A stretch of 60,843 bases of DNA, filler included, from Candidatus Woesearchaeota archaeon CG1_02_57_44 (lineage in GTDB: Archaea; Nanobdellota; Nanobdellia; Woesearchaeales; CG1-02-57-44), in NCBI GenBank assembly GCA_001871415.1. It is 6 parts of 6 records of this genome, joined end to end, with 100 filler letters (N's around TTAATTAATTAA, not from the genome) between each part and the next. Parts side by side here need not be neighbours in the genome. Positions count along the whole stretch, not along the records: positions 1 to 30,747 come from MNWW01000075.1; positions 30,848 to 38,980 come from MNWW01000035.1; 4 more parts are not named here. One strand, written 5' to 3'. The position numbers were made by a program. Below are positions 30,001 to 33,000 of the stretch, piece after piece (within the stretch, counting starts at the first letter, position 1; every line of letters starts with the position of its first letter).

Positions 30001-33000
30001 CTTACATTGTAACTTAAGTTTTGAACTTCTCTAAAATTCTCTTGAAACCCAGTGAGAACTAAGGATAAAATATTATAAATAGAGCTGTCCTACCTACTAA
30101 ATTAGTTTACTTTCCTATCTACTGAAGGATTCCGGAAGATCTGCGGGTATGTTGAGGGTATCAGGAGTAACTCTTGCGGTGGTGAAGGGTTCTGGCGTCT
30201 GTTGCCACCCGTGGTGGTATGTTTATGCTGGTTGACTCCTATGGCTCTGTCCTGAATCTCATTTGACTATGCCAGCAGCGGGCTTCGGCGGCGTTTTCAC
30301 CAGTGACGGATTGACATCCCCGAAGGGGGCATCCCCCTGTCAATGCGCAACATGCAACACATCAGCCTTTGCAATTGCTGCTGGCTGGACTCTTAGGACA
30401 GAGCCGTCTTCTATATTTGCTCACTGCTCATCCTTATGATACAGCATTAGGAACGTGATGATGTCTTTTTCATAGTGATACGCGAGACGATATGGTCCTA
30501 TCTTGAGTTCCCTTGTGTCTTTGCGGCCATAACGCATGGGCTTTCCCGACAATGGATCACTGATGGCTTTTTCCACCTGCTGCTTTACTTGTTGCTTCAG
30601 ACGCTTATCGCGTATCTTCCTGACGGCCTTCAGGAACCCAGGATGGTGCTCTATGCTCAACATGCGCGCAATTCCTCAAGGAAATCATCCTTCGTCGCTG
30701 TCTTGAATTTTCCTTTGTCGTGCTCCTGCCATGCCTGCTCCACCTGCNNNNNNNNNNNNNNNNNNNNNNNNNNNNNNNNNNNNNNNNNNNNTTAATTAAT
30801 TAANNNNNNNNNNNNNNNNNNNNNNNNNNNNNNNNNNNNNNNNNNNNAATGCCTGACATAGACTTTGGTGATGCGAAAAGCACGGTCGCGGTGGTCACCT
30901 TATGGTCTGATAGGACCAAGCTCATGCCAAAGCTGCAGGGCAAGTACCATATCATCGGCAATCTCTACAGCAGCAATGGCATCAACTACATGCTGCAGAC
31001 CCTGCTTGCGTTCCCAAGCATCCGATACCTGATTGTCTGGGGCTTCTCCCTCACCAAGTCCGATGCTGACCTGGTCACGCTTTGGACTGAGGGTGTGGAG
31101 AAGGGCAAGATTCCGGGCACGAAGATTAGCATCCTGCTGGACCCTGAGCGCGTCGACCTGGTGCGAAAGAATGTGCGCATCGTGGACCTGCGCGGCAGGC
31201 CATCGACAGAGATAGCCAAGGCAATTGACGCGCTGCCAGCGATGGAGTCATGGGGAGAGCCCCTGCACGTGTCGCTGATGCCAGAATCCGTGGTCGAGAC
31301 CATCCCCAGCCCCTTGTCAGGCCATCACATCTATGAGGAGTCGGTCTTCGGCGCGTGGGTGAAATCGCTCAATTACATCATGAAGTTCGGCAATATGAAA
31401 GAGTCAGAGTATGGCATCCGGCAGAAGGAATACAACAATCTGATGGTCACTATCGGCAAGAACTATGATTTCATCGAGTATGGCTTCAAGGAGCAGTTCA
31501 CTGCCGATGAGCTGCAGGAGTATGCTGATTCCCTGATGTCGGCAGACAAGCAGCCCGGCCTCTCCTATACCTACGGCGAGCGGCTCATGGACTATCGTGG
31601 CAATGATCAGATAGCGTATATCATCAGCAAGCTTGGCGCATCGCCCAACAGTCGAAGGGCAGTCGCAGTGCTCTGGGACCCGCTCATCGATCAGGAGCAG
31701 CCGCACGGTCCGTGCCTGAATTTCATCTCCTTTAACATCCACAACGACGAGCTCTTCGCCTCCATCGTGTTCCGCAGCCATGACCTGTTCAAGGCATGGC
31801 CCAAGAACGTGCTGGGTCTCATGCGATTGCAGCGGCATGTGGTGGACCGCATCAACGAGCGGCATGGTATGCGTCTGAAGCCGGGCAGGTTCACGGTTAT
31901 CAGTATCTCCGCGCACATCTATGAGCAGGACTTCGCGGATGCCAAGGCAGTGGTTGATCAGCATCTCTCCATCATCCAGCGCCTGAATGTGGACCCGAAA
32001 GGATTGTTCGTGGTCGATATAGAGACCGGCACTATCCGTGTCGAGTATCGCAGCAATGCCGGCGAATTATTGCAGGTCTTCGAGGGCAAGAACGGCGAGG
32101 ACCTCTATCAGCAGATAGCCAACAATGACATCTTCTCCTTCTTCGTGCACTCTGCCTACCTTGGCTATCAGATAAGCAAGGCAGAGTCCTGCCTCAATGA
32201 CGGCAGGCCCTACGTGCAGGACGCGGCGCCTGATAGCTGACGCTTGATGGAAGCGTCATGATAAAGCACCTTGCGCGCGCACTGACCGGTAAGTCGCGCT
32301 TCAGCTCATGCGGCTTTGGCGCGGTGCGTGAGCTGCATCTCGGTCTCAAACAGGCTCAGGATGTGGGTCTGCATATCGCGCTCATCATGGCGCGCCTTGC
32401 TCACTTCCGCGACAACTGTTTTCATATGCTCTGCAGGGAACCCTTCCTTCTCCAGCTGGGCAAGGATCTGCTCGTCACGCCTGACCTCATCATGGATGAG
32501 GTATGCCTCAACGACCACAGCGTCGAATTCAGCGTGCCAGATCTCCTTGGAGCTGCGAAGGATGAGCTCTGCTTCCTGGCGCAGTTCCTCCACCAGTCTT
32601 CGCAACTCTTGCAGGGTCTGATCGGAGATCGGGTGAAGGCCGCTTTCCACATGTTTGATGACCTTCTCTATCTTATGGCTGAGTCTTGATATGACGCGCA
32701 TATTCTTGCCGATGTTGTACTCTGCGCCCGCCAAATCCCGCACTGTCTGCAGCTCTCCCATGTTGACCCCCTCACTGAGGTGGGCTACTCCTTGCTTGGA
32801 CAGGCTGTCCTTGACGTCAATGTATGCCTTTGCCGCGAAGTCGCGCAGTGTCGCCATGGCCTGGTTGGTCGTGGCGTGCGCCTGGCGCACGAGCGTTACT
32901 GCTTCCTTTGCTTGCCGGGAATTGGCAGGCTCTGCGCGGGCAGTATCTTGTTCCAATGCCGCGAGCTTGACCGAGAGCGTGTTGATGTGTCCCTCGATGT

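What a model noticed while it worked through the whole genome (the two positions that open the first line are those of the whole stretch)
30849..32240. Thymidylate synthase sandwiched between an MtrA-fold domain and a pterin-binding domain in a genome without DHFR
g00500 (463 aa) carries a ThyA core (aa ~155-375, catalytic Pro-Cys kept) preceded by a 137-aa domain that models onto the cobalamin-binding Rossmann domain of methanogen MtrA and followed by a PterinBD-DUF4346 domain; the genome has SHMT but no DHFR, no MTHFR and no folate-synthesis gene in the tables. Boldest reading: this is a self-sufficient thymidylate synthase that does not release dihydrofolate to a separate reductase - the flanking domains either hold and recycle the pterin (a functional analogue of DHFR-TS) or relay a methyl group from a methyl-pterin through a bound corrinoid to Cys-activated dUMP. 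New: neither the architecture nor a role for the MtrA-like and DUF4346 domains in dT [...]
Evidence so far: Pfam MtrA aa 3-117 (E 3e-7), Thymidylat_synt 233-392, PterinBD-DUF4346 382-458; NCBIfam equivalog TIGR03283 covers 99% of the model but 44% of the protein. AlphaFold2 on 10 homologues: mean pLDDT 75.7; VIA-align against 48,161 PDB chains: aa 1-137 to MtrA-cobalamin complex 5laa_B Z 17.9, rmsd 1.9 A, 135 aligned, 27% id; aa 154-375 to ThyA-family enzymes Z 15-20. Same full-length architecture in 9 further proteins (39-66% id; call 147); G287-P288-C289 and R269/R270 nearly invariant. No DHFR_1, MTHFR, Pterin_bind, HPPK, FolB or GTP_cyclohydroI row in pfam.tsv; SHMT g01277, B12-dependent RNR g01112, cobalamin adenosyltransferase g01281 and a tandem ThyX g01119 are present. 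PF14251 in 375/822 Wo [...]
(Added by a program. Inside this text positions count along the whole contig: they may not be those of the stretch shown here. "Call 12" and the like, gene names such as g00115 and contig names such as C1 are that model's own, and its searches are not shown. The text may have been shortened before it was handed on; [...] marks where a part breaks off. The agent that wrote the report below was given it as the finding of a first reader that could run no searches.)

Follow-up and report, generated by a model that had tools for sequence, protein, structure and literature searches.

The report
Three-domain thymidylate synthase without folate cycle
This gene encodes a thymidylate synthase wedged between two domains borrowed from vitamin-B12 carrier proteins, a widespread but unstudied enzyme form found mostly in tiny microbes that lack the usual partner enzymes for making the DNA base thymine.

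Summary
Window 30849-32240 (+) is a complete 463-aa ORF with three domains: an MtrA-like Rossmann domain, a short methanogen-type ThyA core, and DUF4346. It is not rare: 348 cluster representatives match at E<=1e-30, in DPANN archaea, CPR bacteria and others. This scan had already noted the family 46 times on other DNA.

The ThyA core keeps every nucleotide-binding and catalytic residue of standalone methanogen ThyA. Relatives sit in dCMP deaminase / thymidylate kinase operons, and one is fused to a dCMP deaminase. It is predicted to form a ThyA-type homodimer in which DUF4346 pairs with itself on the two-fold axis.

The N-domain is a true MtrA homologue, but none of 101 family members has the cobalt-ligating His, and the loop that carries it is shortened. 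Genuine MtrA-DUF4346 proteins keep that His.

Carriers mostly lack the folate cycle. DHFR was found in 3 of 16 DPANN carriers and 1 of 10 CPR carriers. Ten of the 16 DPANN carriers have none of DHFR, SHMT, GcvT, FTHFS, FolD, Pterin_bind or ThyX. This genome itself has SHMT and a tandem ThyX.

Verdict: a real dTMP synthase and a new variant of a known kind. The role of the flanking module is unresolved. A folate-cycle-independent route is plausible at about 0.3.

The parts
30849..32240 (+). Complete gene for the 463-aa three-domain thymidylate synthase (stop codon 32238-32240)
   Evidence: ORF listing. Upstream in-frame stop in the overlapping contig copy. Domain hits.
30849..31259 (+). aa 1-137: MtrA-derived Rossmann domain without the cobalt-ligating His. 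Subfamily-specific W19 and Y40; conserved S41, G44, G65, S71.
   Evidence: Pfam MtrA 27.8 bits. Profile to 5laa E 6.1e-22. VIA Z 18.4, rmsd 1.8 A, 135 aligned. His84 aligns to S71, which is S 70 / T 20 / A 7 / V 2 of 101. Loop deletion relative to genuine MtrA-DUF4346 proteins.
31260..31307 (+). aa 138-153: linker running into the dimer-interface segment 152-160
   Evidence: No regular secondary structure in the model. Residues 146-149 and 152-160 are in the predicted interface.
31308..31976 (+). aa 154-376: short (methanogen-type) ThyA catalytic core. Key residues: Y240, Y242, R245, R269, R270, P288-C289, R309-S310-x-D312, N320, H356, Y358.
   Evidence: TIGR03283 175.9 bits. VIA Z 18-24 to ThyA-fold enzymes. 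Motif alignment to solved ThyA. Same conserved residues as 11 standalone methanogen ThyA.
31713..31715 (+). Codon of the catalytic Cys289 (P288-C289-L290)
   Evidence: Translation check. C in 99% of 101 family members. Aligned to the catalytic Cys of solved ThyA.
31977..32237 (+). aa 377-463: DUF4346 domain (three strands, two helices). Invariant D382, G385, H434, G439, Q457. Helix 432-451 is predicted to pair with its twin across the dimer axis.
   Evidence: PF14251 62.1 bits. Domain model pLDDT 90.9. No solved relative: best Z 6.1, no Foldseek E<=1e-3. Same invariant residues in standalone and other fused forms. Interface pairs 436:436, 439:439, 440:440, 443:443.

Best explanation
The gene encodes a working homodimeric thymidylate synthase of the short 'methanogen' type. 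Its catalytic core is inserted into a two-part module inherited from soluble corrinoid proteins: an MtrA-like Rossmann domain followed by DUF4346.

At the core, Cys289 adds to C6 of dUMP. The substrate is held by R309/S310, N320, H356/Y358, and R269'/R270' from the partner chain. A one-carbon unit is then transferred to C5 and reduced to a methyl group, as in other ThyA enzymes. The donor is a reduced pterin-type carrier bound in a pocket that differs from bacterial ThyA.

DUF4346 pairs with its twin on the two-fold axis and clamps the dimer. The N-domain sits at the periphery. It has lost His-on cobalt ligation, and its old cofactor pocket is rebuilt (W19, Y40, shortened beta3-alpha3 loop) but stays highly conserved. 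I read it as a ligand-binding accessory that holds or feeds the cofactor the core needs. This would let the enzyme work in cells without the FolA/GlyA cycle.

Shown here: the domain anatomy, residue conservation, genomic context, phyletic pattern and the predicted dimer.
Inferred: dTMP as product, the nature of the one-carbon donor, and any ligand of the N-domain or DUF4346.
For: 1. ThyA identity. TIGR03283 scores above its cut-off. The fold matches at Z 18-24. The R-R, P-C, R-S-x-D, N and H-x-Y motifs align to solved ThyA and are 72-99% conserved in 101 members. The same residues are conserved in 11 standalone methanogen ThyA.

2. Pathway context. Among the 83 loci then held, dCMP deaminase is a neighbour in 34, thymidylate kinase in 19 and dCTP deaminase/dUTPase in 8. 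CPR genomes share a co-directional operon: nucleotidyltransferase, Nudix/HIT, dCMP deaminase, this gene, Tmk, DeoC. P0192 is the three-domain protein fused to a dCMP deaminase.

3. It replaces other synthases. ThyX occurs in 2 of 16 carriers against 57 of 105 non-carriers in the own-phylum sample. In 9 of 16 carriers it is the only ThyA/ThyX homologue found.

4. Dimer. The homodimer prediction scores 0.87, with the best of 3 controls at 0.00. That mark was reached by 20 of 30 proteins solved as pairs of one chain and by 1 of 23 solved as single chains. The runs share at least 92% of contacts, and partner pLDDT is at least 87. The ThyA part resembles solved ThyA dimers and may pass from memory. 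The DUF4346-DUF4346 contact has no solved precedent.

5. The module is rigidly packed on the core (pTM 0.89). Its pocket residues W19, Y40, S41, G44 and S71 stay conserved even in paralogues whose ThyA core is deleted.

6. Loss of His-on cobalt binding.
Against: - No activity was or could be measured.
- If the chemistry were canonical, each dTMP would consume one methylene-tetrahydropterin. Yet 10 of 16 carrier genomes in the own phylum (96-100% complete) show none of DHFR_1, SHMT, GCV_T, FTHFS, FolD, Pterin_bind or ThyX. Ordinary ThyA chemistry leaves both the donor supply and the recycling step unexplained there.
- The residues that line the folate p-aminobenzoyl pocket in bacterial ThyA are replaced (K315, A316, K319). 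The Trp-rich folate segment could not be aligned.
- The ligand of the N-domain is unknown, and no coordinates were available to measure how far its pocket lies from Cys289.
- In this genome a tandem ThyX (two Thy1 domains, 88 and 54 bits) could make dTMP on its own.
Confidence: 0.5

Rival explanations
1. Corrinoid one-carbon relay. The N-domain still binds a cobamide, base-off and His-off, perhaps capped by DUF4346. A cobalt-bound methyl group is handed to Cys289-activated dUMP, so no dihydropterin is made and neither DHFR nor SHMT is needed.
For: - Both flanking domains come from corrinoid-protein lineages. Genuine MtrA proteins that keep His84, the TEN motif and the meander motif are followed directly by DUF4346.
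- DUF4346 is also fused to B12-binding radical SAM plus ferredoxin, to BtuF-like Peripla_BP_2, and to MeTr/CdhD-like Pterin_bind proteins.
- All five ferredoxin-DUF4346 proteins of about 191-202 aa examined have that build, and two lie next to B12 radical SAM genes.
- Part of MtrA's nucleotide-tail pocket is kept: Thr53 position S/T in 92 of 101, Gly57 position G in 99 of 101, Asn64 position N in 74 of 101, Val61 position hydrophobic in 99 of 101.
- 12 of 16 carriers in the own phylum encode B12-binding domains, against 51 of 105 non-carriers.
- The lack of folate-cycle genes in carriers.
- His-off corrinoid proteins exist (CFeSP; recalled, not from a call).
Against: - His84 is replaced in all 101 members. 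Glu54 and Asn55 are not kept, the beta3-alpha3 loop is 3-5 residues shorter, and the meander motif is gone.
- Bulky W19 and Y40 now sit at positions that line the tail pocket in MtrA.
- No Pterin_bind/MtrH-type loader in 15 of 16 carriers, and none in the conserved operon.
- 6 of 10 CPR carriers, including a complete 0.6-Mb genome, show no other B12-binding domain.
- Cobalamin adenosyltransferase is present in only 4 of 16 carriers.
- The ThyA core is the same as in standalone methanogen ThyA.
Confidence: 0.18
2. Built-in recycling, a functional analogue of DHFR-TS. The flanking module re-reduces the dihydropterin product, or keeps a pterin bound and recharges it, using NAD(P)H, a flavin or ferredoxin.
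For: - Carriers lack DHFR_1: absent in 13 of 16, 9 of 10 and 5 of 5.
- 29 of the 34 strong DHFR hits in the own-phylum sample lie within 2.6 kb of a canonical long ThyA, whereas 0 of 16 three-domain genes do.
- DUF4346 occurs fused to a 4Fe-4S ferredoxin and to pterin-binding barrels.
- The N-domain has a Rossmann-type fold with a conserved Ser/Gly-rich pocket.
Against: - No classical dinucleotide-binding motif and no detectable likeness to any reductase. Beyond MtrA, the N-domain's next structural matches are generic Rossmann folds at Z<=7.2.
- DUF4346 has no solved relative.
- Recycling alone does not explain the missing one-carbon entry enzymes SHMT, GcvT and FTHFS.
- Non-homologous reductases of the SDR or flavoprotein type were not searched for and could do the job.
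Confidence: 0.12
3. Regulatory or purely structural add-ons. The ex-corrinoid domains only stabilise the dimer or sense nucleotides. The enzyme is an ordinary ThyA that lives on carrier and recycling supplied by a host or by unrecognised enzymes.
For: - DUF4346 is predicted to form the two-fold contact.
- The carriers are mostly host-dependent DPANN and CPR organisms.
- The N-domain touches the partner chain only through residues 91-93.
- The operon context is purely nucleotide metabolism.
Against: - The most invariant DUF4346 residues (D382 100%, H434 99%, Q457 97%) are not among the listed interface contacts.
- The same residues are invariant in standalone, ferredoxin-fused and MtrA-fused DUF4346, which points to a shared chemical or binding role.
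- Module-only paralogues whose ThyA core is deleted persist beside a separate short ThyA in 4 genomes.
- Importing one carrier molecule per thymine would cost more than importing thymidine (inference).
Confidence: 0.12
4. Not a dTMP synthase. It is a ThyA-fold enzyme making another C5-modified pyrimidine nucleotide, such as hydroxymethyl-dUMP, or a flavin-dependent oxygenase like the best structural match.
For: - The best structural hit for the core is a riboflavin-dependent monooxygenase with dCMP and FAD (9iqc_A, Z 23.7), followed by CMP hydroxymethylase MilA (Z 22.1).
- The cofactor pocket is altered.
Against: - Asn320 stands at the position that selects uracil and is N in 98% of members.
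- The NCBIfam thymidylate synthase equivalog scores above its cut-off.
- Tmk and dCMP deaminase are conserved neighbours.
- It is the only ThyA/ThyX homologue in 9 of 16 carrier genomes, which still need dTMP.
- Those structural Z-scores are only slightly above those of true ThyA (20.4), at 19-21% identity.
Confidence: 0.05

Closest known systems
Short methanogen-type thymidylate synthase (NCBIfam TIGR03283; ThyA superfamily PF00303)
   Same: The core has the same length. The same conserved residues are present: W170, G181, E194, Y225, Y240, Y242, R245, Q254, R269, R270, W276, D281, P-C-L, R-S-x-D, A316, N320, H356, Y358. The score is above the equivalog cut-off.
   Different: The methanogen proteins are standalone, 208-296 aa in the loci examined. 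Here the core is flanked by 150 aa of MtrA-like domain and 87 aa of DUF4346. W317 is specific to the fused family. [quoted passage not shown]
MtrA and cytoplasmic MtrA homologues (PF04208; structure 5LAA; Wagner, Ermler and Shima 2016, PMC4915002)
   Same: Same Rossmann-type fold (Z 18.4, rmsd 1.8 A, 27% identity). Profile E 6e-22. Part of the nucleotide-tail pocket is conserved.
   Different: - No His84, no Glu54, no meander motif, and a shorter beta3-alpha3 loop.
- W19 and Y40 are new.
- No membrane anchor.
- It is not part of an Mtr complex.
Bifunctional DHFR-TS of protozoa and plants
   Same: A ThyA core fused to an N-terminal alpha/beta domain in one chain, forming a dimer. The comparison was prompted by the absence of a separate DHFR.
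   Different: The N-domain here is not a DHFR: there is no DHFR_1 match in the protein, and structurally it is MtrA-like. There is a third, C-terminal domain. No reductase function has been shown.
ThyX, the flavin-dependent thymidylate synthase
   Same: It works like ThyX in one respect: it occurs in genomes without DHFR. It is nearly mutually exclusive with ThyX (2 of 16 carriers against 57 of 105 non-carriers).
   Different: The fold is unrelated. No flavin site is known here, and ThyX still needs methylene-tetrahydrofolate.
Modular corrinoid methyl-transfer systems (MetH, Mtr, CFeSP)
   Same: The domain repertoire around DUF4346 (MtrA, MeTr-like pterin barrel, ferredoxin, B12 radical SAM, BtuF-like) resembles the parts lists of such systems.
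   Different: In the ThyA-linked subfamily the cobalt ligand is lost, and no loading methyltransferase accompanies it.

Membership tests
ThyA thymidylate synthase (PF00303 / TIGR03283) | Curated family score | tested here: met
   PF00303 scores 52.5 bits against a cut-off of 24.3. TIGR03283 scores 175.9 against 174.55, only just above.
ThyA thymidylate synthase (PF00303 / TIGR03283) | Catalytic Cys in the Pro-Cys motif | tested here: met
   P288-C289, aligned to the catalytic Cys of solved ThyA. C in 99% of 101 members.
ThyA thymidylate synthase (PF00303 / TIGR03283) | dUMP-binding residues: Arg-Arg from the partner chain, Arg-Ser-x-Asp, Asn for uracil, His-x-Tyr | tested here: met
   R269/R270, R309-S310-H-D312, N320 and H356-I-Y358 align to the matching motifs. 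They are 72-99% conserved.
ThyA thymidylate synthase (PF00303 / TIGR03283) | ThyA fold and obligate homodimer through the central sheet | tested here: met
   Fold Z 18-24. Predicted dimer scores 0.87, best control 0.00; the mark was reached by 20 of 30 proteins solved as pairs of one chain and 1 of 23 solved as single chains; at least 92% shared contacts; pLDDT at least 87. This is a prediction, and the ThyA part may pass from likeness to solved dimers.
ThyA thymidylate synthase (PF00303 / TIGR03283) | Folate-pocket residues of bacterial ThyA (hydrophobic p-aminobenzoyl pocket, Trp-rich segment, C-terminal lid) | tested here: not met
   In the aligned motif the hydrophobic residues are replaced by K315, A316 and K319. 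The N-terminal Trp segment does not align. The C-terminal tail is replaced by DUF4346. Standalone methanogen ThyA share these differences, so this separates the short type from bacterial ThyA, not this protein from the short type.
ThyA thymidylate synthase (PF00303 / TIGR03283) | Conversion of dUMP to dTMP | not testable with these tools
   Needs an enzyme assay or genetic complementation.
MtrA corrinoid-binding subunit (PF04208) | Fold and family score | tested here: met
   27.8 bits against a cut-off of 25. Profile E 6.1e-22 to 5laa. Z 18.4.
MtrA corrinoid-binding subunit (PF04208) | Cobalt-ligating His84 with its Glu54 partner | tested here: not met
   His84 aligns to S71, and no His occurs there in 101 members. 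The Glu54 position is variable. Genuine MtrA-DUF4346 proteins keep both.
MtrA corrinoid-binding subunit (PF04208) | Meander segment consensus GAIPF-Y/F-x-EN (PMC4915002) | tested here: not met
   The segment is 4 residues shorter and not conserved.
MtrA corrinoid-binding subunit (PF04208) | Bound cobamide | not testable with these tools
   Needs spectroscopy or metal analysis. No cobalamin ligand is offered by the folding tools.
DUF4346 (PF14251) | Family score and invariant D-P-x-G ... H-A-x-Y-L-G ... Q-D residues | tested here: met
   62.1 bits against a cut-off of 29.6. D, G, H, G, A and Q are invariant across 30 standalone and fused domains.
Bifunctional DHFR-TS | A DHFR_1 domain in the same chain | tested here: not met
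   No DHFR_1 match in the protein at E<=1 or in the genome.

The most novel reading that the evidence does not exclude
The three-domain enzyme makes thymidylate without the folate cycle. A module recruited from corrinoid proteins (His-less MtrA domain plus DUF4346) supplies the one-carbon unit and/or the electrons, either through a His-off cobamide methyl relay or through a bound, recharged pterin. This would explain how DPANN and CPR organisms with no DHFR, SHMT, GcvT, FTHFS, FolD or ThyX obtain dTMP. It would also hint at the still unknown donor system of methanogen-type ThyA.
Probability: 0.3. Interest if true: 0.9.

Novelty: new variant of a known kind. Interest (0 to 1): 0.7.

Why it matters
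Thymidylate synthesis is essential, and only two routes are known: ThyA with DHFR, and ThyX. 'ThyA needs FolA' is treated as a rule (PMC9931769 and PMC11974145, passages seen). Here a large, unstudied ThyA family breaks that rule, and in many carriers it stands as the only recognisable folate-type enzyme. If the flanking module supplies the carbon or the electrons, this would be a third way of making thymine. It would also give a first function to DUF4346 and to the non-methanogen MtrA homologues. Finally, it would bear on how ultra-small symbionts build DNA. A cultured carrier, Anaerovirgula multivorans (L077), makes the question directly testable.

Tried and rejected
- Structure of DUF4346. 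The domain folded alone (pLDDT 90.9) found no convincing solved relative. VIA-align's best Z is 6.1, to ribosomal and PH-like small domains, with 0 chains at Z>=8. Foldseek found no match at E<=1e-3. The ESM Atlas look-up with a standalone DUF4346 gave no usable hit.
- DHPS-like DUF4346 proteins. A hidden MtrA-like domain was sought by profile comparison. Only the C-terminal DUF4346 aligned, and Pfam shows DUF6513 plus Pterin_bind instead.
- Conserved neighbours. I looked for a folate or cobalamin gene and found only nucleotide-metabolism genes. The neighbours of standalone DUF4346 genes are heterogeneous.
- Local context in this genome is uninformative. Downstream lie a 319-aa and a 1494-aa ORF without family matches. 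Upstream, in the C39 copy, lie a Vut_1 transporter and an MscS channel.
- Enrichment of conserved DUF4346 residues in the predicted interface. I counted 9 of 18 conserved positions against 40 of 88 domain residues, which is no enrichment.
- Own-phylum statistics. DHFR and SHMT are not rarer in carriers than in non-carriers there (3/16 against 34/105, p 0.39; 6/16 against 31/105, p 0.57). The depletion is seen only in CPR (p 0.008 and 0.0008). Related genomes are not independent, so these p-values overstate.
- Cobalamin adenosyltransferase shows no association (4/16 against 37/105).
- Literature. 'DUF4346', 'PF14251' and 'PterinBD' each returned 0 papers. 'Thymidylate synthase' with 'MtrA' returned 11 papers, all on unrelated subjects by title and abstract. 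The search for the flavin monooxygenase 9iqc found nothing relevant.
- The first search for related loci attempt failed because the 101-row alignment was too divergent. It worked with 13 closer rows.

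
Full report
**What is there.**
The window is a chain of contigs of one 1.53-Mb, 82%-complete genome, joined by N spacers. 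The finding is the first gene of contig C31: window 30849-32240, plus strand, 463 aa. Its first 288 nt recur, reversed and 94% identical, at the start of contig C39. In that copy an in-frame stop lies 39 nt upstream of the ATG, so the N-terminus is complete, give or take a two-codon alternative start.

Pfam finds three domains:
- MtrA, aa 3-117, 27.8 bits
- Thymidylat_synt, aa 233-392
- PterinBD-DUF4346, aa 382-458

NCBIfam's thymidylate synthase equivalog TIGR03283 covers aa 161-364 at 175.9 bits, just over its cut-off of 174.55. With 101 homologues AlphaFold2 gives a confident single-body model (pLDDT 95.7, pTM 0.89). Residues 1-137 superpose on the MtrA-cobalamin structure 5laa_B (Z 18.4, rmsd 1.8 A, 135 aligned, 27% identity). 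The next Rossmann folds score Z 7.2 or less. Residues 154-370 superpose on ThyA-fold enzymes (Z 18-24).

**How common it is.**
- In the word-indexed search, 61 of 66 hits carry both PF14251 and PF00303.
- An exhaustive scan of 1.84 billion cluster representatives gives 2948 matches at E<=1e-3 and 348 at E<=1e-30. Nearly all of the best 150 align end to end.
- Named records place the family in DPANN archaea (Woesearchaeota, Nanoarchaeia, Aenigmatarchaeota, Iainarchaeum, Pacearchaeota), Thermoproteati, Marsarchaeota, many CPR lineages, Chloroflexi, Nitrospinota, Planctomycetota and the cultured Firmicute Anaerovirgula multivorans.
- In a sample of 121 genomes of the own phylum, 16 carry a full-length copy. 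In 101 CPR genomes, 10 do.
- Databases call it 'thymidylate synthase'.
- I found no paper on the architecture. Searches for DUF4346, PF14251 and PterinBD each returned 0 papers. 'Thymidylate synthase' with MtrA returned 11 unrelated papers.
- The Asgard thymidylate paper does not mention MtrA, fusion or DPANN (PMC9931769, term search).
- This scan had already noted the family 46 times on other DNA.

**The catalytic core.**
The ThyA motifs align to solved enzymes: S-R-R, P-C, R-S-x-D, the uracil-selecting Asn, and H-x-Y. They are 72-99% conserved across 101 members. Aligned with 11 standalone short ThyA from methanogen genomes, the fused family conserves the same residues. W317 is the only clearly family-specific one. 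So the chemistry at Cys289 should be whatever methanogen-type ThyA does. The hydrophobic p-aminobenzoyl pocket of bacterial ThyA is replaced (K315, A316, K319), and the C-terminal lid is replaced by DUF4346. The short type as a whole shares this.

**Context says dTMP.**
- Among the 83 loci then held, dCMP deaminase neighbours the gene in 34, thymidylate kinase in 19 and dCTP deaminase/dUTPase in 8.
- CPR genomes share a co-directional operon: nucleotidyltransferase, Nudix/HIT, dCMP deaminase, this gene, Tmk, DeoC, GatB.
- One relative (P0192) is additionally fused to a dCMP deaminase.
- ThyX is found in 2 of 16 carriers against 57 of 105 non-carriers in the own phylum (p 0.002 uncorrected for kinship).
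- In 9 of 16 carriers the three-domain protein is the only ThyA/ThyX homologue.

**The dimer.**
Two copies are predicted to pair with score 0.87; the best of three controls is 0.00. That mark was reached by 20 of 30 proteins solved as pairs of one chain and by 1 of 23 solved as single chains. The runs share at least 92% of contacts, and partner pLDDT is at least 87. This supports binding but does not show it.

The interface contains:
- the ThyA sheet (194-203, 291-309, 347-354) and the R269/R270 loop, as in solved ThyA dimers, so this part may pass from memory;
- helix 432-447 of DUF4346 packing on its twin (436:436, 439:439, 440:440, 443:443), for which no solved precedent exists.

Of the N-domain only residues 91-93 touch the partner. 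D382, H434 and Q457, the most invariant DUF4346 residues, are not in the contact list.

**The N-domain is an ex-corrinoid domain.**
The MtrA paper (PMC4915002; passages and the section on the binding mode read) names the key features:
- His84 as the cobalt ligand, held by Glu54;
- a meander motif;
- a nucleotide-tail pocket made of Thr53, Gly57, Asn64, Tyr18 and Val61.

In the family, His84 aligns to S71, which is S 70, T 20, A 7, V 2 of 101, never His. Glu54 and Asn55 are variable, and the meander is shortened. Genuine MtrA-DUF4346 proteins keep T-E-N, G-H and the meander. The ThyA-linked ones (this protein, L102, L103, P0010) have a 3-5-residue deletion at the His loop and gain W19 and Y40. 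Part of the tail pocket survives: S/T in 92, G in 99, N in 74 and a hydrophobic residue in 99 of 101. The pocket has therefore been rebuilt, not abandoned. It stays conserved even in paralogues of 389-406 aa whose ThyA core is deleted. Those paralogues coexist with a separate short ThyA in G016, G007, G094 and G066.

**DUF4346.**
Folded alone it is a three-strand, two-helix domain (pLDDT 90.9) with no convincing solved relative (best Z 6.1; no Foldseek hit at E<=1e-3). Its invariant residues are the same in standalone (about 105-130 aa), ferredoxin-fused and enzyme-fused forms.

Among 1015 longer proteins with the domain (best 120 listed), the partners are:
- MtrA, often with a Cys-rich N-terminus;
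- MtrA plus ThyA;
- Pterin_bind plus DUF6513, the 'DHPS-like' TIGR00284 type;
- BtuF-like Peripla_BP_2;
- B12-binding plus radical SAM plus ferredoxin.

All five proteins of about 191-202 aa that I checked are ferredoxin-DUF4346, and two lie beside B12 radical SAM genes. The common thread is corrinoid or pterin methyl-transfer machinery, so the Pfam label 'PterinBD' looks like a name by association.

**Life without the folate cycle.**

Own-phylum sample, 16 carriers (whole-sample frequency in brackets):

| Family | Carriers | Whole sample |
|---|---|---|
| DHFR_1 | 3 of 16 | 37 of 121 |
| SHMT | 6 of 16 | 37 of 121 |
| FolD | 2 of 16 | 15 of 121 |
| Pterin_bind | 1 of 16 | 7 of 121 |
| ThyX | 2 of 16 | 59 of 121 |

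- In each of the three carriers with DHFR, the DHFR gene sits next to a second, canonical long ThyA.
- Ten carriers, 96-100% complete, have none of these five families. The same ten also lack GCV_T (0 of 10) and FTHFS above cut-off (0 of 10).
- 29 of the 34 strong DHFR hits lie within 2.6 kb of a long ThyA. None of the 16 three-domain genes does.
- In this phylum DHFR and SHMT are scarce anyway, and carriers do not differ from non-carriers (p 0.39 and 0.57).

CPR sample, 10 carriers:
- DHFR in 1 of 10 (a weak 31-bit match, 1.8 kb from the gene) against 50 of 91 non-carriers.
- SHMT in 3 of 10 against 76 of 91 (p 0.008 and 0.0008; kin are not independent).
- Five named carriers, including two complete genomes and Anaerovirgula, have no DHFR_1.

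Canonical ThyA consumes one methylene-tetrahydropterin per dTMP. A lone ThyA with neither donor supply nor recycling is therefore hard to sustain by salvage (inference). This is the strongest argument that the module does something the folate cycle does elsewhere.

**Is it a cobamide?**
- For: the ancestry of both flanking domains; the partly kept tail pocket; B12-binding domains in 12 of 16 carriers against 51 of 105 non-carriers.
- Against: the lost His; the filled-in pocket; no MtrH-type loader; the adenosyltransferase in only 4 of 16; no other B12-binding domain in 6 of 10 CPR carriers, including a complete 0.6-Mb genome.

I put the corrinoid relay at about 0.18 and built-in pterin recycling at about 0.12.

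**This genome.**
G000 has SHMT (C58). Within about 3.5 kb of it lie a dCMP deaminase and a PduO-type cobalamin adenosyltransferase. It also has a 549-aa tandem ThyX and one B12-binding domain above cut-off. DHFR_1, Pterin_bind, MTHFR, FTHFS and FolD were not found, but at 82% completeness these absences are soft. Here the enzyme is therefore not demonstrably the only route to dTMP. The case for unusual chemistry rests on the family.

**Verdict.**
A genuine, complete thymidylate synthase gene of an uncharacterised three-domain family: a new variant of a known kind.
- Product and core mechanism: likely canonical, about 0.8 for dTMP.
- Role of the flanking module: open.
- Combined best reading: 0.5.
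- A folate-cycle-independent route: about 0.3, and of high interest if true.

Statements about CFeSP being His-off, about the 1990s biochemistry of archaeal thymidylate synthase (only the reference list was seen) and about MesA needing a corrinoid protein (from earlier scan notes) are recalled or second-hand and were not checked here.

Noticed in passing
G016:C59 (L102:1256-2392), G007:C3 (L103:4974-6146), also G094, G066; P0010: Paralogues of 379-411 aa keep the His-less MtrA-like domain, the first ~70 residues of the ThyA fold and DUF4346, but lack the ThyA catalytic core. Each of the four genomes also has a separate short ThyA of 223-232 aa. L103 lies beside a kinase-dCMP deaminase fusion, and L102 lies 2.6 kb from a tandem ThyX.
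   Followed up: partly
L096-L100 (about 191-202 aa ORFs); P0212, P0213: A family of 4Fe-4S ferredoxin-DUF4346 fusion proteins (5 of 5 mid-sized DUF4346 ORFs checked). Two sit next to B12-binding radical SAM genes, and two database proteins fuse B12-binding, radical SAM, ferredoxin and DUF4346 in one chain.
   Followed up: partly
P0220, P0228 and about 10 more (361-373 aa): An N-terminal DUF4346 fused to a Peripla_BP_2 (BtuF/FhuD-type) binding protein. This is another unstudied architecture that links DUF4346 to corrinoid- or metal-chelate-binding folds.
   Followed up: no
P0219, P0224, P0235, P0222, P0247 (alignment A4): Genuine His-on MtrA-DUF4346 proteins carry a Cys-rich N-terminal segment with repeated C-x-x-C motifs. 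Two (P0222, P0247) also have a long hydrophobic N-terminus. They look like soluble or membrane-tethered corrinoid proteins with a possible metal or Fe-S site.
   Followed up: no
G000:C53 (L106:4975-6624, minus strand): A 549-aa protein with two Thy1 (ThyX) domains in tandem (88 and 54 bits). Such tandem forms of 450-630 aa are common in the phylum sample. The second half keeps an R-H-R motif.
   Followed up: partly
window 28001-30747 (end of contig C29): GC drops to 0.30, against about 0.58 elsewhere. The stretch holds a 490-aa ORF (28031-29503, minus strand) with a P-loop (GPRRVGKT) and an 80-aa ORF (30421-30663, minus strand). It may be a foreign or mobile insert, or a binning artefact.
   Followed up: no
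window 33309-37793 (minus strand): A 1494-aa ORF directly downstream with no Pfam match. It is acidic, with a Gly/Ser-rich stretch and a coiled-coil-like C-terminus.
   Followed up: no
window 30848-31135 and G000:C39:1-288: Two contig ends carry the same gene start at 94% identity. The assembly probably broke inside the gene because of two co-assembled strains.
   Followed up: yes
G126:C3:67236-67580: In one CPR carrier a divergent DHFR_1-like ORF (183 aa, 31 bits, model positions 2-106) lies 1.8 kb from the three-domain gene. Similar partial DHFR-like ORFs of 177-190 aa occur in eight other CPR genomes.
   Followed up: no
G035:C147, G118:C85, G012:C8: ORFs of 776-782 aa combine a Pterin_bind domain with a B12-binding domain about 300 residues downstream. 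They look like MetH-like proteins without the homocysteine domain.
   Followed up: no
model mae7cd44d610a, aa 154-370: The best structural match of the ThyA core is 9iqc_A, a 'monooxygenase dependent on riboflavin with dCMP and FAD' (Z 23.7). ThyA folds can therefore hold a flavin. No paper on it was found in the library.
   Followed up: partly
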